A stretch of 64,000 nt of DNA from an uncultured Candidatus Saccharibacteria bacterium (GTDB lineage: Bacteria > Patescibacteriota > Minisyncoccia > Phycocordibacterales > SBAW01): the NCBI GenBank assembly GCA_964566795.1, contig CAZMIU010000001.1, positions 399,797-463,796 on the forward strand, in the 5' to 3' direction. The position numbers and the translations under genes were made by a program. Below are positions 53,201 through 64,000 of this stretch, piece by piece. The notes beneath the pieces were generated by a model. That model saw only the letters and a list, made by a program, of their open reading frames with translations. It had not been told where the DNA came from and made no database searches. Numbering within the stretch: position 1 is the stretch's first letter; each line of letters opens with the position of its first letter.

Positions 53201-54394
53201 TTACGCGATTATCTTTGTGACAACGCCTGCACCTACGGTCTTGCCGCCCTCGCGGACTGCAAAGCGGGTCTTGTCCTCGAGTGCCACAGGCGCTACGAGC
53301 TTGACCTTAAAGGTAATGGTGTCGCCCGGCATAACCATCTCAGTACCAGCAGGCAAGGTTACCTCGCCGGTTACGTCCGTAGTGCGGACGTAGAACTGGG
53401 GCTTGTAGCCGGTGAAGAACGGCGTGTGGCGGCCACCCTCCTCCTTGGTGAGGATGTATACCTCGGCCTCAAACTCGGTGTGCGGGGTTACGGAACCCGG
53501 CTTAGCCAAGACCTGGCCGCGGTGGATGTCATCCTTGGCGGTACCGCGCAGGAGGATGCCTGCGTTGTCGCCTGCCTGGCCCTGGTCGAGCTGCTTGTTG
53601 AACATCTCGATACCGGTAACGGTGGTCTTAGTGGTTGGCTGGAGACCTACAATCTCGATATCCTCGCCTACCTTGAGCACGCCGCGCTCGATGCGGCCTG
53701 TCACTACAGTGCCGCGACCCTCGATAGAGAAGATGTCCTCTACCGGCATAAGGAACGGCTTGTCGAGCTCGCGGACCGGGTCTGGGAAGAAGCTGTCCAT
53801 GGTGTTAACGAGCTCCAATACCTTCTGAGACCACTCGTTGCTCAAGTCATTAGACTCGAGCGCCTTGAGGCCGGAACCCTTGATAACCGGAGAACCCTCG
53901 TAGCCCTGCTTGGCCAAAAGCTCCTTGATCTCCTCCTCGACGAGGTCCAAGAGATCCTTGTCCTCAACCATGTCGCACTTGTTGAGGAAGACGATGAGTT
54001 TCGGCACGCCAACCTGGCGGGCCAAGAGCACGTGCTCGCGGGTCTGGGGCATAAGGCCGTCAGTTGCCGCAACTACAAGCACTGCGCCGTCCATCTGGGC
54101 AGCACCGGTGATCATGTTCTTGATGTAGTCGGCGTGACCCGGAGCGTCGATGTGTGCGTAGTGACGCTTAGGGGTCTCGTACTCCGAGTGGTGGAGCGCG
54201 ATGGTGATACCGCGAGCCTTCTCCTCCGGAGCGTTGTCGATACCGTCAACGGCCTCGACGCGTGCGCCGTAACCCTGGCTCTTTGCCATGTCGAGCGTGT
54301 GGAGGATCGACGCGGTGAGCGTAGTCTTGCCGTGGTCAACGTGACCGATGGTGCCCACGTTCATGTGGGGCTTAGACCTTTCGAAATTTGCCAT
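53201..54394 (-). CDS. tuf: Elongation factor Tu
   Basis: [10 protein letters not shown] and DCPGHADY motifs. Confidence 0.98.
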
Positions 54395-54557: not shown

Positions 54558-56591
54558 TTAATAGAGTCCGGCCTGGAAGAGGAACTCGGAGAAGGCGTCT
54601 ACTATCATGTAGACCGGGGCCATCTCAACCGCTGCAAGCGCATCGGTCACTTTGCTCATGGTCTCGTAGAAACTTATAGGCAGGTATGGGAGCGCTGCCG
54701 TCAGCTCAGAGACAGGCACCATGGAGGTTGAGCCGGGCACGGTCACCGTCTTGGTGATTACCGGGGTCGGCGACGCGCATACCGCAGTCGCAGGGCATGA
54801 GGTTGGAGGGAGCACCTTGATGGTGTAGGTGCCGGCTGTTTTGTACGGATAGCTGCGGGTAAATACCGGCTGGCAGCTGCCGATACCTATGGGGATATTG
54901 GCACTAACGCCGTCACCATAGTCGAGCGTATAGGTCTTACCATCGCAGCCCTGGCCCGTGCTGCCCTGGATACTTACCCAAAGCGAGCCAGCAGAGGTTG
55001 CCACCGTGAGTGTGGGCTGTGTTACCGAGGTACCGCCTGTCGAGTCGCTGGGCTTTGAGGGATTAAGGTACACAAAGCCGGAGTCGAGCACGTCGCCCGC
55101 CTCGTTGAGTATCGCCACGCTGTAGGTACCCTGGGTAAAGGTGCGCGTGGTGGTGTGTGACCAGCGGCCACTTGTGACCGCGATAGCCGGCGAGTTGTAG
55201 ACAGTCGCCAAATCTTTCAGCATCGTGATGTAGATTTTTGAGATTGTAGCTGAGCCGCCAAAGGTTATCTTGCCGGTGCTGTCTGTTGAGGTAGTGTCGC
55301 GCGATACCTGCCTCTCCTGTGAGTTGCGGTCCATAACCTGCATAGAGAACACCGCGTTGCTCAGGCCCTGGGAGAGCACCGTACCGTCTGCCTTGTAGGC
55401 CACAACCTTGGCCTGGTACTTGTTGCCGGCGGGCACGCGTGCATACCCGCGGGTTGTTGAGTCCTGATTGCTGGTGCCTACGTTTACGCAGTTGTTGGTT
55501 TCAGGCAAAGGATATGAAACGCCTGATGAACCGTTGTAAAGGAAGGAGCATGCGTACGAGCCGGCAGGCATCTTGTAGTTGCGCCACCCAATAAGCATGC
55601 TGGTGCCAAAGTGGCCGTCGCGCGTAATGTCGTACGGACCTTTGCTATTTTTAGGGTACGTTACAACAACTGTCGGGACTGTATATACGGGCTCAGAAGA
55701 CGAATTATCCTCCTCCCCCTCATCTTCGTCCTCATCCTGGTCATTGCTGCAGGATGCGGTGTTCGAGTTGTCATTGCGGTTGCACTCTAAGCTTGCAGCC
55801 AGAACATTAACTGTCTTGAATGCCACCATCTCACCCTTGGCGCCATCTTTATGCAACGCTGCGACATAGGTACCCGGGGTCGAGTAGGTGTGGGTCGCGT
55901 TCACTTCCCCATATCCGCTGATTGAACCGTCGCCAAAGCTGATGTAGGCACCCGCGCTAAGTGCAGAGCCACTGCCTTTAAACGAAACCGTAAGGGGTGC
56001 CTTGCCCGATGTGGGGCTGGCAGTAAAAGTGACTTCACTCGTATTGCTGGAGGAATTCCCGATGATGAGAATGCCCTTAGCGAGAGCGACTTTGGATGCG
56101 TAATCAAATACTACTACCCTCATGGTAGCGGCGGCGTTGATACCAAATTGTGCAGACCAGCGGCCGTTTTTTACATCGGACTTCTCGATAAAGATGCCGT
56201 CCTTGCCGAGCTGGCCGGCAATGGTGTTGTAGTCCGTAATGGACGCGTAGGTCTCATAGTTTGTAGGCACGAGCACGACTGCGACTTTCTTGGTGTTAGC
56301 CGCGGTACCTGTGATATAAAACTTGCCCAAGCCAGTAGTGATCGACTCCTGGTCCAATGACGCACTGGATACGTTCGGATTGGTGGTGCCCGAACCGCCA
56401 CCGAGGACGGACTTAACCGTGTTGATGGTTGCCTGCGGCACATCAAACGCCTCGAGTAGGTTTATGACCGCGTTAATCTGCGCCGAGGTCAGCTGCCCTG
56501 CCGCCCGCGCCGGTTGTGCGCTTACGGCAACAAGTACGAGCGAGATGATAAGGGCGGCGAGGAGTGAGCGGATGGAGCGTGCAGCAGTCAT
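54558..56591 (-). CDS. Secreted multi-domain protein with PKD domain(s), an acidic linker and an N-terminal module shared with the next gene
   Basis: Signal MTAARSIRSLLAALIISLVLVAVSAQPARA. The PKD-like block is EVTFTASPTSGKAPLTVSFKGSGS..ISFGDGSISGYGEVNATHTYSTPGTYVAAL. The acidic stretch is DQDEDEDEGEEDNSS. Confidence 0.6.
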   Translation of the reverse strand: MTAARSIRSLLAALIISLVLVAVSAQPARAAGQLTSAQINAVINLLEAFDVPQATINTVKSVLGGGSGTTNPNVSSASLDQESITTGLGKFYITGTAANTKKVAVVLVPTNYETYASITDYNTIAGQLGKDGIFIEKSDVKNGRWSAQFGINAAATMRVVVFDYASKVALAKGILIIGNSSSNTSEVTFTASPTSGKAPLTVSFKGSGSALSAGAYISFGDGSISGYGEVNATHTYSTPGTYVAALHKDGAKGEMVAFKTVNVLAASLECNRNDNSNTASCSNDQDEDEDEGEEDNSSSEPVYTVPTVVVTYPKNSKGPYDITRDGHFGTSMLIGWRNYKMPAGSYACSFLYNGSSGVSYPLPETNNCVNVGTSNQDSTTRGYARVPAGNKYQAKVVAYKADGTVLSQGLSNAVFSMQVMDRNSQERQVSRDTTSTDSTGKITFGGSATISKIYITMLKDLATVYNSPAIAVTSGRWSHTTTRTFTQGTYSVAILNEAGDVLDSGFVYLNPSKPSDSTGGTSVTQPTLTVATSAGSLWVSIQGSTGQGCDGKTYTLDYGDGVSANIPIGIGSCQPVFTRSYPYKTAGTYTIKVLPPTSCPATAVCASPTPVITKTVTVPGSTSMVPVSELTAALPYLPISFYETMSKVTDALAAVEMAPVYMIVDAFSEFLFQAGLY

Positions 56592-56609
56592 ACGAGTTAC
56601 AAATTGAAA

Positions 56610-58163
56610 TTAAAATCCAAATAATGCGGCATAGGCCGAGAGCACGCCAGCGAGCGACCAGTTTATCTCTATGATCTGGTCTGCAACAATGTTTATAGAT
56701 GCAGTCATAGACTCCATCGGGATCATGGCGGCGGCGGCCATCATCTGGCCTCCGTCAAACAGTGCCGACGAGATGCCAAAATTGCGCGGCCATGAGGTTA
56801 TCGACTGCAGGTTGATGCCCGCAGCATCGAGCTGCGATTGCATGCTAGAGAGATCTGCCTTGCTAAACCCAAAGTTGGTTATGTGCTTGAGGAGCACGTC
56901 CGGGTTGGCTGCCGATGTAAGCTGGTAGCCGTTTGCATCTACAAGCGCGAGCACGTAGTTGACGCCGACACCCGGGAGTATCTCCTTGTAGAAGGTAAAG
57001 TTGCCCGCGTGCGCAAGTACCGTGGTGTTGGCGCGGTCTGCCGGGCGGGTGGCGCCCGATGCCAGGTAGGCGGTGGAGCCGCTATTGTACATGGCACTGG
57101 TAAGTGCGCGCGCCGTTGCGAGCGGATTTGCGGAGGACATTATGACGCCCCAATCGCGCATGTCGACGTTGGACCCTATGACGCCGTAGAGCATGCTCGA
57201 GGCGATAGACGCGTCGGTCTTGGCCGCGGCGGCAAACTGCGCCGTGTTGGGCTTGGACGCAGACATGCTGTTTGTACCTGTGTTGGTAGTTGTGTTGGTG
57301 TTTGTGTTCGTCTCAGTTGTGGTCTCGGTCTGTGTTGCCGGCATCTCGCCGCCGGTGGTGATGAGACCCGGTATAAAACCGCGGGGCCACGAAGTTGCCG
57401 ATTGAAGGTTGATACCCTTTCCATCAAGCTGGGCCTGGAGCACAGCCAACTCTGCCTTGTTAAACCCAAAGTTTAGGACCAGCTTCTGGAGCGTGTCGGA
57501 GTTGGCTGCCGATGTAAGCTGGTAGCCGTTCTTGTCTACAAGCGCGAGCACGTAGTTGATGATGCTGCCCGGCAAGATTTCCTTGTAGAGCGTAAAGTTG
57601 CCATAGCTGGCAAGCACTGAGGTGTTGGCGCGGTCCTGGGGGCGGGTGGCGCCCGATGCCAAATATGCCTTAGAGCCGCTGTTGTACATTGCCGCAGTTG
57701 CCGCACGGGCGGCAGCAAGCGGGTTAGACGACGCCATGATGGCCGTCCAGTCGCGCACATCCAGGTTGGACCCTATGACGCCGTAGAGCATGCTCGAGGC
57801 GGTAGACGCGTCGGTCTTGGCCGCGGCGGCAAACTGCGCCGTGTTGGGCTTGGACGATGAGATTGTCTGGCTTTGCTGTGTCTGCGTGCTCGCCGGAGTT
57901 TCTGGCTCTACGGACGGTGCCACAGGCATCGTCGCTGCAGGAGCGGTGCCGCCGTTTAAAATGGTTTTGACGTTGGCGATGGTTGCCGCATCAACGCCGA
58001 AGGCGGACAAAAGCCCTATAACGCCGCTTACCTGGGTTGAGGTAAGCCCGGCCGCCTGGGCGGGGGTCGGGGTTACCACAAGAGCGAGGGTGAGCACAAA
58101 CATGACAACGCCTACAACCAGGTGTAGTGCGATGGAGCGGAGGGCTATAGGGCGGGCGTGCAT
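56610..58163 (-). CDS. Secreted protein with a perfect ~200-aa internal tandem duplication and the shared N-terminal module
   Basis: Signal, then AGLTSTQVSGVIGLLSAFGVDAATIANVKTILNGG. The unit SKPNTAQFAAAAKTDAS..LYGVIGSN.D.RDW..IM.S.NPLA.AR..T.AMYNSGS.AYLASGATRP.DRANT.VLA..GNFT.YKEILPG...NYVLALVD.NGYQLTSAAN.D.L repeats twice. Confidence 0.55.
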   Translation of the reverse strand: MHARPIALRSIALHLVVGVVMFVLTLALVVTPTPAQAAGLTSTQVSGVIGLLSAFGVDAATIANVKTILNGGTAPAATMPVAPSVEPETPASTQTQQSQTISSSKPNTAQFAAAAKTDASTASSMLYGVIGSNLDVRDWTAIMASSNPLAAARAATAAMYNSGSKAYLASGATRPQDRANTSVLASYGNFTLYKEILPGSIINYVLALVDKNGYQLTSAANSDTLQKLVLNFGFNKAELAVLQAQLDGKGINLQSATSWPRGFIPGLITTGGEMPATQTETTTETNTNTNTTTNTGTNSMSASKPNTAQFAAAAKTDASIASSMLYGVIGSNVDMRDWGVIMSSANPLATARALTSAMYNSGSTAYLASGATRPADRANTTVLAHAGNFTFYKEILPGVGVNYVLALVDANGYQLTSAANPDVLLKHITNFGFSKADLSSMQSQLDAAGINLQSITSWPRNFGISSALFDGGQMMAAAAMIPMESMTASINIVADQIIEINWSLAGVLSAYAALFGF

Positions 58164-58325
58164 AGGGACTAGTTATTTCTAAAAACGTATAAGTGGCTGC
58201 AGAACAAGCAGGAGCGGAGCGACAAAACAAGAAAGGGCCCCAACGCAAATGCGTTGGTGCCCTGTATGAGACTCAGTATAGTCCCTCTTGCCTACCCCAC
58301 AAGTAGGGGGTGTGTATAAGTGTCG

Positions 58326-59465
58326 TTAATCCTCGATGGTAAAGAGGTGGCTCTTGTCATCGTCCAGCCTCTCGCCGGTGCCATTGTCGTCCTCGTACAG
58401 GCTCGCCTTGATGTAGTACTCGCCGTCAAGGTCATAGCCGCACAAGCCGTTAGGGTACTGGAGGGTGCAGTAGTCGCCCTTCTCAGGCACATCCCACTCA
58501 TACTCCTCCTCATCGGCATCAACGATGGCTATAGTGCCAACGCGGTCGTCGTCCTCGTCATAAAGCTCCAGGACCACGGAGGCGTCGTTAGGCTCGTCGG
58601 TGACATTCCACTCGATATCAAGGTCATCGCCCTGCTCTACCTCGACATTGGAAGAGGGCGAGGTTACGTCTATAGTGCCGTCCTCATCGTTGTCGTTATC
58701 ATTGTCGTCATCGTCCTCAGTCACGCGGAAGGTGGCCTCATCGCGGTCAAGCTCCTTAACCTCAATGTTCCAGTCGCGGAAGTTGACGTCGTCACCGTCT
58801 TCAAGGATATACGACTGCGAGGGAGCATAGAAGCAGTAGGTGCCCGCCCTGCAGCCTTCGGTTACCGTAATGCGCACGGCCTGGGGCTCCTGATTGTAGT
58901 AATAGCCATAGCCGTACTGGCTCATAACCACCTGGTTAAGCGTGATAGTGAGGTCTTCATTGCGCAGCTCGCCTGTCTCGCCCACATCAAGAGAGAAGTC
59001 ACGGTCAAGACGGAAGGTCGTGGTGCGGGTAGTGGGGTTGGTCGGATAGCCCGGGTTATAGCTGCCGCCGCATACGCGTGCGATTGCCTGGCGGGTCAGA
59101 GGACCAACCCCGCCCGTTGCCGGGTATACGCCGTTTTCCTGCTGGAAGCGGGTCACGTAGTAGCTCGTGAGCTGGCCATAGTAGCCGCCCGTGAGGCGCG
59201 TGTCGCTATAGCGGGAGCGCAAAAAGTTCTGCAGTGAGCTTACCTGGCCGCCGGTGGTGTAGTCGCTGGAGCCCAGGGTGAGGTTGTAGCTCAGAGCCGG
59301 GCAGCCGTAGGAGGTACCACCATAGTACTGGTTGGTGTACTGCGGCTGGGTGTACTGCGGGTAGTAGTAGCTCGGGTTGTAGGTCTGAGCCATTGCCGGA
59401 GCGGCCACAAAGAGACCCGCGAGGGCTGCGAGGCCAAATACAAAGGTTTTCATACGATTTTGCAT
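58326..59465 (-). CDS. Secreted protein with a PG_binding_1 (peptidoglycan-binding) domain and a highly acidic C-terminal domain
   Basis: Signal MKTFVFGLAALAGLFVAAPAMA; a Tyr/Gln-rich stretch; GGQVSSLQNFLRS..GGYYGQLTSYYVTRFQQENGVYPATGGVGPLTRQAIA; D/E-rich blocks. Confidence 0.6.
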   Translation of the reverse strand: MQNRMKTFVFGLAALAGLFVAAPAMAQTYNPSYYYPQYTQPQYTNQYYGGTSYGCPALSYNLTLGSSDYTTGGQVSSLQNFLRSRYSDTRLTGGYYGQLTSYYVTRFQQENGVYPATGGVGPLTRQAIARVCGGSYNPGYPTNPTTRTTTFRLDRDFSLDVGETGELRNEDLTITLNQVVMSQYGYGYYYNQEPQAVRITVTEGCRAGTYCFYAPSQSYILEDGDDVNFRDWNIEVKELDRDEATFRVTEDDDDNDNDNDEDGTIDVTSPSSNVEVEQGDDLDIEWNVTDEPNDASVVLELYDEDDDRVGTIAIVDADEEEYEWDVPEKGDYCTLQYPNGLCGYDLDGEYYIKASLYEDDNGTGERLDDDKSHLFTIED

Positions 59466-59588
59466 TGATAAATAAGGCTAAAATGGGCCCTTGATAATTA
59501 GGTTCGCGCTTACAATACCACAAGACGCGCAAAGCGCAACTGTATTACAAAAGCCCGGGGTTTCCCCCGGGCTTTGTCGTGATGTGGC

Positions 59589-60221
59589 TCAATTGGGTCG
59601 GCCTGTTGCTTGTTCTGCCGAAGGAGGGGGCGTAAGTAGAGCATACCCCCGAAACACGCTCCTCGTGCACTCCTGCTCGGTAAGTGGGCGGCCAGCGTCG
59701 CAAGTATCTCCAATGATTGAGAATATCAGGGACATTGCCTTTGAACACTGGTTCATTGCATTACCCAGACTCTCCTTATATTCCTCGTCGCAAAGAGAGC
59801 TGTAAAAGACCGGAACGACATACTGCAGTACAGCAATCTTCTTGTCATACGCAGGGATGACATATCCAGCCAGAGTATCCTCGGCGCGCTCGAGCGCTTT
59901 TTTTATCGAGCGGTCGACCGTGCGCGAGAAAGCCTCAAATTTGGCATTCGTCAGAAACTTCTGCTGGTGCTGCATCCCGACTATGACTAATTCGTCGCTT
60001 AGTCTGTGCTCAATACGGGAGCAGAAGCTTGTTCCGTCGTTTGCTTTCATCAAAAACTCTATTCTCTGCGTCGACTCCCGGAGGATAGTGCAGACGTCAT
60101 TGTTTTCGATAAGACCTTGTCGGGCGACAGCTAGCGGGCGACTGGAAGTTCCTACCATGGCTCTGCCTTTCTTTTGTGACAACTTCTGTATCCATTCAAG
60201 CACCGGCACGCACAAATGCAA
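59589..60221 (-). CDS. Hypothetical cytoplasmic protein in a locally lower-GC segment
   Basis: 210-aa ORF with noticeably lower GC than its flanks; flanked by hairpin terminators. Confidence 0.4.
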   Translation of the reverse strand: MHLCVPVLEWIQKLSQKKGRAMVGTSSRPLAVARQGLIENNDVCTILRESTQRIEFLMKANDGTSFCSRIEHRLSDELVIVGMQHQQKFLTNAKFEAFSRTVDRSIKKALERAEDTLAGYVIPAYDKKIAVLQYVVPVFYSSLCDEEYKESLGNAMNQCSKAMSLIFSIIGDTCDAGRPLTEQECTRSVFRGYALLTPPPSAEQATGRPN

Positions 60222-60285: not shown

Positions 60286-62436
60286 TTACTTGCGTGCGGC
60301 AACGATGGTTGCGGCTACCTGCGGAGGCACCACCTCGTAGTGGTCGAACTCCATGGTAAACGACGCGCGGCCCTCAGACATTGAGCGCAGCGCTGTAGTG
60401 TAGCCGAACATCTCCGAAAGAGGCACCTTGGCACGGATTGCACGCGCGAGCCCGCGCTCCTCCATGCCCTCAATCTGGCCGCGCTTGGAGTTAAGGGAGC
60501 CGGTTACGTCACCCATGAACTTCTCGGGGGTAACGACCTCCACTTTCATAATCGGCTCCAGAAGTACAGGCTTTGCCTTGGTCATTGCATCCTGGAAGCC
60601 CATAGATGCGGCGATTTTAAAGGCAATCTCGGATGAGTCCACATCGTGGTAGGAACCGTCATAGAGCTCGATGGAGATGTCGACCATCTTAAAGCCGGCA
60701 ACATAGCCGCGCTCCATAGCCTCGCGCACGCCGTCCTCTACCGGACCGATAAACTCGTTGGGGACCACGCCGCCCTTGATGTTGTTGATAAACTCGAAGT
60801 GGTCCTCGCGGGTAACGTTCTTAGCCTGCTTCTTGTCCTCGTTCACGGGCTCAAGCGGCTTTACGCGCAGGCGCACATGGCCGTACTGGCCCTTGCCGCC
60901 TGTCTGCTTGATGTACTTGCCCTCGCCCTCTGCCGGTGCCTGGATAGTCTCGCGGTAGGCAACCTGGGGCTTGCCGGTGTTGGCCTCGACGCCAAACTCG
61001 CGCTTCATGCGGTCTACCAAGATCTCGAGGTGGAGCTCACCCATGCCCGAGATTAGGGTCTCGTTGGTCTCGGTATCGGTGGTCACACGGAAGGTTGGGT
61101 CCTCGTCTGCAAGCTTCTTCATGGCCATACCCATCTTCTCCTGGTCGGCCTTGGTCTTGGGCTCGATGCGCATCGAGATAACCGGCTCGGGTACGGTAAT
61201 GCCCTCGAGGATAATGGGGTTGGTCTCGTCTGAGAGCGTGTGGCCGGTCTTAGCCGACTTCAGCCCCACGGCTGCGGCAATCTCGCCTGCAAACACCTTT
61301 TTTACCTCTTCGCGCTTGTCTGCCTGGAGGCGCACGATGCGGCCCAGGCGCTCCTTCTCACCCGTGGAAGAGTTGATGATGTAGGAACCTGCCTCCACAA
61401 CGCCCGAGTACACACGGAAGAATGTCAGCTGGCCCACAAACGGGTCTGCCTGGAGCTTAAAGGCGAGCGCGGAGAACGGCTCGTCGTCTGCGGCCTGGCG
61501 CATGATAGGGTCGCCGGTCTTGGGGTTGGTGCCGGTGATTGGCGGCATGTCTACCGGTGAGGGTAGGTAGTCGACAACAGCGTCAAGCACCAATTGCACG
61601 CCGCGGTTCTTGAGTGCCGAGCCGGTGTATACGGGGAAAATCTTGTTGTTGATGACTGCTTTGCGGAGGGTCTTTTTGAGATCCTCAAGCGACGGCTCCT
61701 TGCCGTCGAGGTATGCGGTCATGAGGTCATCGTCGTTCTCAACGATCTTCTCGATAAGCTCTGCGCGGTACTTCTTGGCATCCTCGAGCATGTCTGCCGG
61801 GATGTCGTAGGTAGACACGATCTCACCCATGGCGCCCTCAAACTTGTAGGCCTTCATGGTAAGGAGGTCGACAACGCCGTCGAACTCGGCCTCAGCACCA
61901 ATGGGGAGCTGCATGCGCACTGCGCGCGGGGTAAGGCGGTCGAGGATGGAGGCGTACGACTTCTCAAACGATGCACCCATGCGGTCCATCTTGTTTATAA
62001 AGCAGATGCGCGGCACGTTGGCCTCGTCTGCATAGCGCCAGTTGGTCTCAGACTGTGGCTCTACACCGGCAACGCCGTCAAACACCACTACTGCGCCGTC
62101 GAGCACGCGCATGGAGCGCTTAACCTCTACGGTAAAGTCGATGTGGCCGGGGGTGTCGATAACGTTGAAGCGGAATTTCTTGGATGCGTCCTTTTTGTCC
62201 GGCTCGTCGGTCTTGGACCAGAAGCAGGTGATAGCCGCCGCGGTAATGGTGATGCCGCGCTCGCGCTCCTGCTCCATCCAGTCAGTCGTGGTCTGGCCGT
62301 CGTGCACCTCGCCTATCTTGTGCTGGGAACCGGTGTAGTACAGCACGCGCTCAGACGTGGTGGTCTTGCCGGCATCGATATGGGCGATGATGCCAAAGTT
62401 GCGGATCTTCTCGAGCGGGTAATCTCTAGTGGGCAT
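60286..62436 (-). CDS. fusA: Elongation factor G
   Basis: Start at [27 protein letters not shown] (716 aa). The ORF-track entry extends a further 300 aa upstream through an open frame and was trimmed. Confidence 0.97.
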
Positions 62437-62539
62437 GAGCTTATAGTCTAAGTAATAATTAGATTCAAAAATCCGCCGGTAGGCGGGCTTGGCACTATAG
62501 TACTGCGTCCGGGGCAAAAAGCAATATACTAAGTTCATC

Positions 62540-62980
62540 ATGGACAACATAACCGAACCCCAATTTGAGTGCTGCCACTGCTCTTTAGAGGTCACACCCA
62601 ACCCCTCCATGGGCACGATGCACCGCAACCACTGCAACCACTGTTTGTGGAGTAAGCACGTGGACCAGACCCCGGGCGACCGCGCCTCCACCTGTGGCGG
62701 ATGCATGGAGCCCATAGGTGTGACGCTCAAGCACGAGGGCCAGGACAAGTACGGCAAAGAGAGGCTGGGCGACGTGATGCTCGCACACCGCTGCACGCAA
62801 TGCGGACACATAAACATTAACCGCATAGCAGCCGACGACCCGGAAGACCTGATAGTAAAAGTGTTTGATATATCAAGCACCCTGCCCCGAGAGACGCTCG
62901 ACGGGCTCGCAAAACAAAACATCGCGCTCCTAACCGATAAAAAACTCCTAAAGGAAAAGCTTTTTGGAAAGAGTAAATAA
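62540..62980 (+). CDS. RNHCP-domain Cys/His-rich (zinc-binding) protein, antisense to and inside the rpsG-fusA spacer
   Basis: ECCHC...HRNHCNHC...CGGC...CTQCGH cysteine/histidine clusters including the eponymous RNHC motif; followed by a terminator. Confidence 0.55.
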
Positions 62981-62988
62981 ATACAAAA

Positions 62989-63012
62989 ACGCCGCCCGGA
63001 TGGGCGGCATTC
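62989..63012 (+). terminator. Rho-independent terminator after the RNHCP gene
   Basis: cgccgccc-ggat-gggcggc followed by attcttttatattttt. Confidence 0.6.
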
Positions 63013-63049
63013 TTTTATATTTTTGGGATTACCAGGCGACCAATTGGGG

Positions 63050-63520
63050 TTACCAGGCGAAGTGTGCAAAAGCCTTGTTAGCCTCGGCCATGCGGTGGGT
63101 GTCCTCTTTCTTCTTAAAGGCAAAGCCCTCGTTGTTGGCAGCTGCCATAAGCTCGGTAGCCAACTTCTCGGCCATAGGGCGGCCCTTGGCAGAGCGTGCT
63201 GCCTGGAGTATCCAGCGGAAGGCCATGGCCTGCTTGCGCTCGGGGCGCACCTCGCGGGGCACCTGGTAGTTGGCACCGCCCACGCGGCGCGAGCGGATCT
63301 CCATCGCAGGAGAAACGTTGCGGATAGCGGTCTCAAAGAGCTCTACCGGGTTCTCTACCTTGGCCTTCTCCTTCATGATGTCAAAGGCATCGTATACAAC
63401 CTTGCGTGCGGTCGACTTCTTGCCGTCCCACATAACAGAGTTGATAAACTTCTCCACGCGGACAGAGCCGAACTTGATGTCCGGACCTGCCATGTTGCGA
63501 TTTTTAACGGGGCGACGCAT
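63050..63520 (-). CDS. rpsG: 30S ribosomal protein S7
   Basis: Family similarity. Confidence 0.97.
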
Positions 63521-63542
63521 ATCAGTAAATTAAAATATCAAA

Positions 63543-63950
63543 TTATTTCGGGCGCTTTGCACCATAGCGCGAGCGGGAGCGGCGGCGCTTCTCGAGGCCC
63601 GCTGCATCGAGCTTGCCGCGCACTACCTGGTAGCGCACGTTGATGTCCTTCACGCGGCCGGCGCGGACAATTACCACGGAGTGCTCCTGGAGGTTGTGGC
63701 CCTCGCCCGGGATGTAGGCGGTAATCTCCTGGCCATTGGTGAGGCGCACGCGGGCGATCTTGCGGATAGCGGAGTTAGGCTTGCGGGGGGTCGTGGTGGT
63801 CACCTTGGTGCAGACACCGCGCTTGAAAGGGCTCGGGTAGAAGACAGGCTTGTTCTTAAGCACGTTAAAACCGCGCGCGAGTGCGGGCGACTTGGTCTTG
63901 TTGGGGCGCTCTTTGCGGCCCTTGCGGATGAGTTGTGAGAGACGTGCCAT
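63543..63950 (-). CDS. rpsL: 30S ribosomal protein S12
   Basis: PNSAIRK and related S12 motifs. Confidence 0.97.
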
Positions 63951-64000
63951 TTAGTCTAAATTCTTCCCTATTGTTTTAATTGCCGAGGCAATTAAAAACG

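What the first reader, a model, noticed from the sequence alone, without database searches (positions are those of the whole stretch)
62437..63049. RNHCP-domain zinc-finger gene embedded antisense between rpsG and fusA
S7 and EF-G are normally adjacent. Here a 613-nt spacer holds a plus-strand gene for a 146-aa Cys/His-cluster protein (ECCHC, RNHCNHC, CGGC, CTQCGH) with its own terminator. It would be transcribed convergently against the str operon. 

RNHCP-domain proteins are poorly characterised. The placement invites a regulatory or antisense-interference role in expression of translation factors.
Basis: partly seen in the sequence, partly recalled or inferred. Interest (0 to 1): 0.5.

Follow-up and report, generated by a model that had tools for sequence, protein, structure and literature searches.

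The report
Zinc-protein gene splitting the str operon
A real, conserved gene for a small zinc-binding protein of unknown function (RNHCP family) sits on the opposite strand between the ribosomal protein S7 and elongation factor G genes of a candidate-phyla-radiation bacterium, but the layout looks built to keep the three transcription units apart, not to make them interfere.

Summary
The 613-nt rpsG–fusA spacer (62437–63049) holds a plus-strand ORF (62540–62980, 146 aa). It matches Pfam RNHCP (E=1.9e-26), has 359 homologues and is under purifying selection (dN/dS 0.12–0.17).

The antisense-interference reading is not supported.
- RNHCP converges only on rpsG. The two share a strong bidirectional terminator (62985–63014).
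- RNHCP diverges from fusA.
- fusA has its own promoter-like block and a 5' hairpin with a T tract. These align in register with the rpsL promoter and leader of relatives. fusA therefore looks like a separate, similarly controlled unit.

The arrangement is inherited within an Adlerbacteria-like Paceibacteria clade. It is present in every locus with RNHCP at 65% identity or more where flanks exist.

Elsewhere RNHCP genes have varied contexts, but several lineages place them in or beside translation operons: rpsL-rpsG-RNHCP, rpoA-rplQ-rplM-rpsI-RNHCP, RNHCP…secE-nusG-rplK, rsgA-RNHCP, pheT/aaRS-RNHCP and tgt-RNHCP. This hints at a translation-linked zinc factor, but it is inference only.

A confident AF2 model has no relative in the PDB, and no literature on the family was found.

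Verdict: a new member of a known, uncharacterised family in a lineage-specific operon variant. Interest is modest.

The parts
62540..62980 (+). RNHCP-family gene. It encodes 146 aa, with stop codon TAA at 62978-62980. Two Cys/His clusters are inferred: C11, C14, (H31) C32, C35; and (H40/H83) C52, C85, C88. A C-terminal three-helix part ends in the conserved LFGK.
   Evidence: ORF listed. Pfam PF12647, E=1.9e-26. 359 homologues. Invariant residues. dN/dS 0.12-0.17. AF2 model with pLDDT 86, pTM 0.79.
62525..62530 (+). -10-like hexamer TATACT, 9 nt before the RNHCP ATG. This is the putative RNHCP promoter. It implies a leaderless or nearly leaderless mRNA (inferred).
   Evidence: A TAnnnT hexamer, mostly TACAAT, starts 12-13 nt before the ATG in 11 of 13 clade loci, even where the surrounding sequence differs. 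Coordinates.
62497..62524 (-). Putative fusA promoter. -35 TTGCTT (62524..62519), 16-nt spacer, -10 TACTAT (62502..62497).
   Evidence: The blocks AAAAAGCAA and CTATAGTA are invariant or nearly so in five loci (A4). They align in register with the rpsL promoters of relatives, which include TTGACA-17-TAGAGT (A5). The block falls below the generic scan threshold, so this is an inference from conservation.
62467..62486 (-). fusA leader hairpin CCGCC-TACC-GGCGG (62486..62473) followed by a T run (62472..62467). It starts about 10 nt after the -10 hexamer. It is either a terminator-like attenuator or a 5'-terminal stabilising stem-loop.
   Evidence: Terminator-like hit. Fold -11.1 kcal/mol, z=-1.6, which is weak on its own. 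Position and form are conserved ahead of both fusA and rpsL in relatives.
62985..63014 (.). Bidirectional intrinsic terminator shared by RNHCP (+) and rpsL-rpsG (-).
   Evidence: One search finds it on both strands. One search gives -16.5 kcal/mol (+; z=-3.2) and -23.9 kcal/mol (-; z=-6.0). Equivalent hairpins with different sequence lie just after rpsG in L001 and L003.
63023..63060 (.). 17-nt direct repeat (63023-63039 and 63044-63060, 94% identical, 21 nt apart). It duplicates the last codons and stop codon of rpsG. It is a small local duplication seen only in this sequence.
   Evidence: It is absent from the relatives' spacers.
63050..63520 (-). rpsG (ribosomal protein S7, 156 aa).
   Evidence: PF00177, E=1.6e-59.
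63543..63950 (-). rpsL (ribosomal protein S12, 135 aa). Its leader runs off the end of the window.
   Evidence: PF00164, E=1.9e-31. The visible leader fragment (63951-64000) matches the 3' part of the L003/L006 rpsL leaders.
60286..62436 (-). fusA (EF-G, 716 aa).
   Evidence: Translation and tblastn: 94.7% identity to the L001 EF-G. Pfam domains of the orthologue are listed.

Best explanation
The spacer holds a genuine protein-coding gene for a small two-zinc-cluster protein of the RNHCP family (PF12647). It behaves as its own transcription unit.

Transcription layout:
- A -10 element sits just before the ATG, so the mRNA is probably leaderless.
- Transcription ends at a GC-rich hairpin that also terminates the rpsL-rpsG transcript coming from the other side.
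- fusA is therefore cut off from rpsL-rpsG. It is driven by its own promoter, followed by a 5' hairpin and U tract.
- That fusA module has the same layout, in register, as the rpsL promoter and leader in relatives. The two halves of the split str operon can thus still be controlled alike.
- The architecture insulates the three units. It does not set them up to collide.

Origin and function:
- The arrangement is inherited within one Adlerbacteria-like Paceibacteria clade.
- RNHCP genes in several other lineages sit inside or beside translation-machinery operons: after rpsL-rpsG, after rplM-rpsI, ahead of secE-nusG-rplK, after rsgA, after pheT or an aaRS, and next to tgt.
- From this I infer that the protein is most likely a zinc-dependent accessory factor acting on the translation apparatus, perhaps the small subunit or its assembly. 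The gene is probably not a cis-acting antisense device.

Shown here: a real gene, family membership, purifying selection, conserved synteny, terminator and promoter-like elements.
Inferred: actual transcription start and end points, zinc binding, and any link to translation.
For: Real gene and family:
-.

Synteny:
- rpsG is next to RNHCP in L001, L003-L006, L087 and L090-L093.
- fusA is next to it in L001-L006, L087, L088, L091 and L094, and in the P0045 contig.
- No locus with RNHCP at 65% identity or more contradicts this.

Insulation:
- Bidirectional terminator, with positional equivalents after rpsG in L001 and L003.

Independent fusA unit:
- Conserved -35/-10/hairpin/T-tract block.
- It aligns in register with the rpsL promoter and leader.
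- The motif AACGCC-N3-6-GGCG occurs only at these two leaders in the clade loci.

RNHCP promoter:
- Conserved TACAAT 6-7 nt before the ATG.

Link to translation:
- rsgA-RNHCP on the same strand in 12 Chloroflexota loci.
- M50-rpsL-rpsG-RNHCP on the same strand in L115.
- rpoA-rplQ-rplM-rpsI-RNHCP with an ATGA overlap in L020.
- RNHCP-rubredoxin-HD-secE-nusG-rplK in 13 metagenome loci.
- PheT, a class II aaRS and TGT as tight neighbours.
Against: - Contexts are heterogeneous. Type IV pilus genes, UvrD-like helicase, DciA, thymidylate kinase, a serine recombinase with UDP-glucose dehydrogenase, pyrophosphatase and XRE-HTH partners also occur.
- Fusion partners are UvrC, pentapeptide repeats and a cytidylate-kinase-like domain, not translation proteins.
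- The protein is not basic (pI 6.4; family median 7.6), unlike typical rRNA binders.
- Reduced CPR genomes are rich in translation genes, so some adjacency is expected by chance. I could not compute a genome-wide background.
- The str cluster in this window is also interrupted between fusA and tuf by four unrelated surface-protein genes, so the site may simply be permissive.
- The promoter assignments rest on conservation only. The generic scan did not call them, and the fusA hairpin is weak on its own (z=-1.6).
- No structural relative gives a functional hint.
Confidence: 0.5

Rival explanations
1. The locus would act in cis. Convergent or divergent transcription of RNHCP would interfere with expression of rpsL-rpsG and/or fusA, through antisense RNA, RNA polymerase collision or promoter competition, and so tune translation-factor levels.
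For: - RNHCP is convergent with rpsG.
- In relatives L093 and L087 the two stop codons are only 13 and 46 nt apart. The rpsG-sense terminator hairpin lies inside the last codons of RNHCP, so short transcript overlap is unavoidable there.
- In the window the fusA -35 (62519-62524) directly abuts the RNHCP -10 (62525-62530). The two inferred start sites are about 50 nt apart, so the two polymerases could exclude each other.
Against: - In the window a strong two-way terminator separates the converging genes.
- fusA and RNHCP diverge, so they produce no antisense overlap.
- The protein sequence is under purifying selection, and the family is widespread in unrelated contexts.
- L115 has RNHCP on the same strand as rpsG.
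- In relatives the two divergent promoters are 15 nt further apart.
Confidence: 0.12
2. RNHCP is a neutral passenger. It would be a zinc-finger protein working on DNA or nucleotides (repair, replication or nucleotide metabolism), or something unrelated to translation. It would sit between rpsG and fusA only because this lineage tolerates insertions in the str cluster, and the arrangement was then inherited.
For: - Fusions to UvrC (GIY-YIG, UVR and RNase H domains), pentapeptide repeats and a cytidylate-kinase-like domain.
- Tight neighbours include UvrD-like helicase, DciA, thymidylate kinase and an AAA_33 kinase, and RadA-like proteins nearby.
- Four unrelated genes lie between fusA and tuf in the same window.
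- Variable extra small ORFs occupy the same spacer in relatives.
- A serine recombinase lies next to RNHCP in L007, L086 and L095.
Against: - Several lineages that do not share the arrangement show linkage to ribosomal or translation operons, some with overlapping or near-abutting stop and start codons.
- The fusA-RNHCP pairing survives down to about 59% RNHCP identity even where the rpsG side has changed (L088).
Confidence: 0.3
3. The ORF is a chance open frame or a decayed pseudogene in a long non-coding spacer.
For: One relative (L087, a contig at 1.9x coverage) has lost two nearly invariant cysteines, C35W and C52S.
Against: - Pfam E=1.9e-26.
- 359 homologues and 1222 clusters at 50% identity.
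- dN/dS 0.12-0.17.
- All conserved ligand residues are intact in the window copy.
- Confident AF2 model.
Confidence: 0.01

Closest known systems
Pfam PF12647 (RNHCP domain) proteins
   Same: The full-length HMM matches well above the gathering score. The conserved CxxC...RNHC-x2-C...H...C...CxxC pattern and the NRIAADD block are present. Like most members it is a small stand-alone protein of 140-220 aa.
   Different: The eponymous Pro is Asn in this clade (RNHCN). The Pfam model covers residues 8-105 only. The conserved C-terminal three-helix part, ending in LFGK, lies outside it. The family has no assigned function, no solved structure and no literature in the searched library.
Classical str operon (rpsL-rpsG-fusA-tufA, as in E. 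coli; established knowledge, also described in PMC2965389)
   Same: The gene order rpsL, rpsG, fusA, tuf on one strand is retained.
   Different: An opposite-strand gene and a two-way terminator lie between rpsG and fusA. fusA has its own promoter-like block. Four unrelated genes (about 5.8 kb, 54558-60221) separate fusA from tuf.
[quoted passage not shown]
   Same: A GC hairpin with a T tract lies in the 5' leader. Similar copies sit in front of both rpsL and fusA.
   Different: The hairpin starts only about 6 nt after the -10 hexamer in relatives, and about 10 nt after it in the window. It would therefore sit at the extreme 5' end of the RNA. No alternative antiterminator fold was looked for or seen. 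There is no Rfam match. It may instead be a 5'-terminal stabilising stem-loop.
Bidirectional intrinsic terminators between convergent bacterial genes (established knowledge)
   Same: A perfect GC stem is flanked by an A run on one side and a T run on the other. It is predicted to terminate on both strands.
   Different: Nothing unusual, except that it ends a ribosomal-protein transcript that normally continues into fusA.

Membership tests
RNHCP domain family (Pfam PF12647) | Match to the family HMM above its gathering score. | tested here: met
   92.3 bits against a cut-off of 24, E=1.9e-26, profile positions 3-89 of 90.
RNHCP domain family (Pfam PF12647) | Conserved R-N-H-C-P motif. | tested here: met
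   R29, N30, H31 and C32 are present and invariant or nearly so. Position 33 is Asn here, and N, S or T in the clade, where the family consensus has Pro.
RNHCP domain family (Pfam PF12647) | Metal (zinc) binding by the Cys/His clusters. | not testable with these tools
   The ligand-like residues C11, C14, C32, C35, H40, C52, H83, C85 and C88 are conserved. Metal content needs a protein experiment.
Contiguous, co-transcribed str operon (rpsL-rpsG-fusA-tuf) | The four genes are adjacent on one strand with nothing between them. | tested here: not met
   RNHCP lies on the opposite strand between rpsG and fusA. Four genes lie between fusA and tuf.
Contiguous, co-transcribed str operon (rpsL-rpsG-fusA-tuf) | A single transcript runs from the rpsL promoter through fusA. 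| not testable with these tools
   The sequence predicts termination after rpsG and a separate fusA promoter. RNA data are needed.
Cis-antisense or convergent-transcription interference pair | Transcripts or transcribing polymerases of the two units overlap. | tested here: inconclusive
   In the window a strong two-way terminator lies between the stop codons, which argues against overlap. In L093 and L087 the genes are 13-46 nt apart, and the rpsG-sense terminator lies inside RNHCP, which argues for a short overlap there.
rpsL-leader type transcription attenuator | A terminator-like hairpin with a U tract between the promoter and the start codon of rpsL and/or fusA. | tested here: met
   fusA: 62486..62473 with a T run. 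The same module precedes rpsL and fusA in relatives.
rpsL-leader type transcription attenuator | An alternative antiterminator structure, or ligand or protein (S7) control of termination. | not tested
   The hairpin begins about 6 nt after the -10 in relatives and about 10 nt after it in the window. This leaves almost no upstream RNA for an antiterminator. Binding needs an experiment. There is no Rfam family match.
Ribosomal protein or ribosome-associated factor | Physical association with ribosomes or subunits. | not testable with these tools
   Only gene-neighbourhood hints are available. The protein is not basic. No similarity to any ribosomal protein structure reached significance.

The most novel reading that the evidence does not exclude
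RNHCP proteins would be a so far unrecognised zinc-dependent factor of the bacterial translation apparatus, acting on the small subunit or its assembly. Their fold has no solved relative. They would have been recruited repeatedly into ribosomal-protein and ribosome-biogenesis operons (rpsL-rpsG, rplM-rpsI, secE-nusG-rplK, rsgA) in Patescibacteria and Chloroflexota. In this clade the gene would be paired with fusA through overlapping divergent promoters.
Probability: 0.3. Interest if true: 0.6.

Novelty: new member of a known kind. Interest (0 to 1): 0.3.

Why it matters
On its own this is an ordinary member of a known domain-of-unknown-function family, sitting in a lineage-specific variant of a classical operon.

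It matters modestly in two ways.

1. It shows how a reduced CPR genome can split the near-universal str operon yet keep fusA under a promoter and leader module matching that of rpsL. This is a compact natural example of operon fission with retained control signals.

2. The comparative data give the first testable functional lead for the RNHCP family, which comprises about 1,200 clusters at 50% identity. The lead is recurrent linkage to ribosomal and ribosome-biogenesis genes. The family includes cultured Anaerolineae (Longilinea arvoryzae KOME-1, with rsgA-RNHCP) in which genetics or biochemistry is feasible.

Tried and rejected
Searches that found nothing:
- PDB sequence search with a 77-sequence profile: nothing below E=0.28.
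- Foldseek against the PDB: nothing below E=0.2.
- The afdb50 library was unavailable.
- NCBIfam, PHROGs and PADLOC: no hit.
- Literature searches for RNHCP, PF12647 and IPR024439: no relevant paper.
- Rfam on 62300-64000: only sub-threshold terminator look-alikes.

Ideas rejected:
- A single conserved operon partner across the family. There is none. RsgA is the commonest neighbour, but it is confined to Chloroflexota.
- The 8-mer TTAGACTA. It occurs only twice in the window, just upstream of the fusA and rpsL start codons. It is not conserved in relatives, and two occurrences are within chance, so I dropped it.
- The 10-nt inverted repeat flanking RNHCP (62556-62565 and 63042-63051). My own estimate is about 0.3 such pairs by chance in 741 nt. 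I do not take it as evidence of an inversion.
- An HNH or deaminase-like catalytic reading of the HRNHC motif. The motif order does not fit, and there is no structural support.

An error corrected:
- My first EF-G query was out of frame. I corrected it.

Full report
**1. What is there**

The window ends with rpsL (63543-63950, minus strand), rpsG (63050-63520, minus) and fusA (60286-62436, minus). Pfam confirms S12 and S7. The EF-G translation is 716 aa and 94.7% identical to the EF-G of a 'Candidatus Adlerbacteria bacterium' MAG, GCA_028286685.1.

It contains one plus-strand ORF, 62540-62980, of 146 aa.

- It matches Pfam RNHCP (PF12647) at E=1.9e-26, 92.3 bits against a gathering score of 24.
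- It has 359 homologues in the large protein collection. The best are 70-84% identical and come from Paceibacterota, Adlerbacteria and 'Pacebacteria' MAGs.
- A profile search of cluster representatives finds 1222 clusters at E<=1e-3.
- Against five orthologues dN/dS is 0.12-0.17, with synonymous sites near saturation.

So this is a functional protein-coding gene. The 1016-aa ORF 60286..63336 is only the fusA frame staying open upstream of its true start.

**2. Transcription signals**

*The terminator.* Ten nucleotides after the RNHCP stop codon lies the stem GCCGCCCGGATGGGCGGC (62991-63008). It has an A run on its 5' side and a T run on its 3' side. The scan calls it a terminator on both strands. 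It folds at -16.5 kcal/mol in the RNHCP sense and -23.9 kcal/mol (z=-6.0) in the rpsG sense. It is therefore at least as good a terminator for rpsL-rpsG as for RNHCP. Relatives carry a different but equivalent hairpin directly after rpsG (L001 and L003).

*The fusA promoter and leader.* The fusA-RNHCP spacer is only 103 nt (62437-62539). Aligning it with four relatives shows invariant or nearly invariant blocks (A4). Read on the fusA strand they are:
- TTGCTT (62524..62519);
- a 16-nt spacer;
- TACTAT (62502..62497);
- about 10 nt;
- the hairpin CCGCC-TACC-GGCGG (62486..62473);
- a T run;
- 30 nt of A/U-rich leader, then the ATG.

*The match to rpsL.* The rpsL genes of the relatives have the same layout in register: -35 (TTGACA, TTGCAG or TTGCAT), 17 nt, -10 (TAGAGT, TAAAGT or TACATT), 6 nt, an AACGCC-loop-GGCGTT hairpin and a T run (alignment A5). 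Within the clade loci the motif AACGCC-N3-6-GGCG occurs only at these two leaders. The rpsL leader of the window itself runs off the end at 64000. The visible part matches the L003/L006 form.

I conclude that fusA is a separate unit with rpsL-like control signals. This rests on conservation only.

*What the hairpin might do.* It would sit at the very 5' end of both RNAs. It could be a promoter-proximal attenuator. [quoted passage not shown] Alternatively it could be a 5'-terminal stabilising stem-loop. I cannot distinguish these. Alone, the window hairpin is weak (z=-1.6), and Rfam has no match.

*The RNHCP promoter.* A -10-like TAnnnT hexamer, mostly TACAAT, starts 12-13 nt before the ATG in 11 of 13 clade loci. 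This holds even in L088, where the rest of the spacer is unrelated. The window has TATACT at 62525-62530. This suggests a leaderless or nearly leaderless mRNA (inferred).

*Promoter proximity.* In the window the RNHCP -10 directly abuts the fusA -35. In relatives they are 15 nt further apart.

**3. Conservation of the arrangement**

Every locus with RNHCP at 65% identity or more and usable flanks has the same layout.
- rpsG is next to RNHCP in L001, L003-L006, L087 and L090-L093.
- fusA is next to it in L001-L006, L087, L091 and L094, and in the P0045 contig.
- L089 shows the fusA-leader hairpin at its contig end.

At 59% identity (L088) the divergent fusA-RNHCP pair remains, but CofD replaces rpsG on the other side. 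At 57-63% (L007, L086, L095) the neighbours are a serine recombinase and UDP-glucose dehydrogenase.

The spacer content varies.
- The RNHCP-rpsG gap ranges from 13 nt (L093) to 1258 nt (L006), with extra small ORFs in L001-L003.
- In L093, L087, L001 and L006 the last codons of RNHCP (EKPLLxERLFGK) themselves form a hairpin. On the rpsG strand this hairpin is followed by a T run. The window lacks this feature and uses the intergenic terminator instead.

In the window the cluster is also broken between fusA and tuf (53201-54394). Four genes lie there: a hypothetical protein, a PG_binding_1 protein, another hypothetical protein and a PKD-domain protein.

**4. The family elsewhere**

Across 160 further RNHCP loci from genomes and metagenomes no single partner is conserved.

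Several lineages link RNHCP to the translation apparatus:
- rsgA immediately upstream on the same strand in 12 Chloroflexota loci, including the isolate Longilinea arvoryzae KOME-1;
- M50 peptidase-rpsL-rpsG-RNHCP, all on one strand with a 20-nt gap, in L115;
- rpoA-rplQ-rplM-rpsI-RNHCP with an ATGA overlap in L020;
- RNHCP-rubredoxin-HD-secE-nusG-rplK in 13 metagenome loci;
- PheT and a class II aaRS upstream (L046, L079), and TGT adjacent (L010, L121).

Other tight neighbours are unrelated to translation:
- UvrD-like helicase, DciA, thymidylate kinase and an AAA_33 kinase;
- an XRE-type HTH and pyrophosphatase;
- type IV pilus genes.

Rare fusions join RNHCP to UvrC, to pentapeptide repeats and to a cytidylate-kinase-like domain.

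Together these contexts point to some nucleic-acid or ribosome-related role, with translation the most recurrent theme. CPR genomes are rich in translation genes, and I could not compute a proper background.

**5. The protein**

Conserved residues include:
- C11, C14, R29, N30, H31, C32, C35, H40 and C52;
- H83, C85 and C88;
- N94, R95, A97, D99 and D100;
- the C-terminal L141 and G143.

The Cys/His pattern fits two zinc sites (inferred). The many invariant polar residues suggest a specific ligand or active site, more than generic binding.

The AF2 model is confident (pLDDT 86, pTM 0.79). It shows an N-terminal knuckle-rich part, a three-stranded sheet (55-95) and three C-terminal helices.

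**6. Verdict**

It is an RNHCP gene with a terminator, on the opposite strand, inside the str cluster. The proposed antisense-interference role has no positive support. It runs against the insulating terminator, the divergent orientation to fusA, the independent rpsL-like fusA promoter and leader, the purifying selection on the protein, and the same-strand arrangement in L115.

What remains possible is modest cis coupling: promoter competition with fusA, and short 3' overlap with rpsG in some relatives.

The most useful outcome is a testable lead that RNHCP proteins work with the translation machinery. I put that at about 0.3-0.4.

In kind, this is a new member of a known but uncharacterised family, in a lineage-specific operon variant.

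Noticed in passing
window 63951-64000 and 62467-62524; L001 5801-5880; L003 5521-5600; L006 3472-3560; L091 and L092 rpsL leaders: rpsL and fusA of this clade carry the same promoter and 5' hairpin module, in register: -35, 16-17 nt, -10, about 6 nt, an AACGCC-loop-GGCGTT hairpin, then a T run. Within the fetched clade loci the motif occurs only at these two leaders.
   Followed up: partly
window 54558-60221: Four genes unrelated to translation lie between fusA and tuf (53201-54394): a 210-aa hypothetical protein, a 379-aa PG_binding_1 protein with an acidic repeat-rich C-terminus, a 517-aa hypothetical protein and a 677-aa PKD-domain protein. The str cluster is therefore interrupted twice.
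   Followed up: partly
window 63023-63060: A 17-nt direct repeat (TTGGGATTACCAGGCGA / TTGGGGTTACCAGGCGA, 21 nt apart) duplicates the last codons and stop codon of rpsG just downstream of the gene. It was not seen in relatives.
   Followed up: partly
window 27294-27366: ARAGORN reports a tRNA-Ile with anticodon TAT (UAU). It overlaps the start of a listed ORF (27281..28402). To my knowledge this anticodon is uncommon in bacteria, which usually read AUA with a modified CAU tRNA.
   Followed up: no
window 60286-63336 (minus strand): The fusA reading frame stays open for about 900 nt upstream of its real start. It runs antisense through the whole RNHCP gene and into rpsG, producing a spurious 1016-aa ORF.
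   Followed up: yes
L093 1329-1362; L001 4403-4432; L006 1274-1305; L087 2262-2283: In relatives the last codons of RNHCP (EKPLLxERLFGK) form a GC hairpin. On the opposite (rpsG-sense) strand this hairpin is followed by a T run, so a terminator for rpsG is embedded in the RNHCP coding sequence. The window copy lacks it.
   Followed up: partly
P0125, P0255, P0238, P0239, P0202: Rare fusion proteins exist: UvrC (GIY-YIG, UVR and RNase H domains) followed by RNHCP; pentapeptide repeats followed by RNHCP (three clusters); and RNHCP followed by a cytidylate-kinase-like domain.
   Followed up: partly
L149 3088-3935; L144, L142 and L159: In one Patescibacteria sublineage a 78-aa XRE-type helix-turn-helix gene overlaps the start of an RNHCP gene. 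That RNHCP carries a Lys-rich N-terminal extension. Downstream lie polysaccharide deacetylase and radical-SAM/SPASM genes. In L115 the same downstream block follows rpsL-rpsG-RNHCP.
   Followed up: no
L087 1844-2299: This RNHCP orthologue (68% identical) has lost two nearly invariant cysteines (C35W, C52S). The contig has only 1.9x coverage, so either sequencing error or gene decay is possible.
   Followed up: no
P0018: JGI labels a 146-aa RNHCP-only protein, 77% identical to the window protein, as 'ribosome biogenesis GTPase'. Other homologues are labelled 'RNA polymerase subunit RPC12/RpoP'. The first label may echo the rsgA-RNHCP linkage seen in Chloroflexota. I could not verify this.
   Followed up: no
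window 62444-62451 and 63952-63959 (minus strand): The 8-mer TTAGACTA occurs only twice in the 64 kb, each time just upstream of a start codon (fusA and rpsL). It is not conserved in relatives, and two occurrences are within chance expectation.
   Followed up: yes
L007 2910-3716; L086 2023-3543; L095 2252-2914: A serine recombinase or resolvase gene lies divergently upstream of RNHCP in three Parcubacteria loci. These are the closest relatives that lack the str-cluster position. This is a possible hint of how the gene moves.
   Followed up: no
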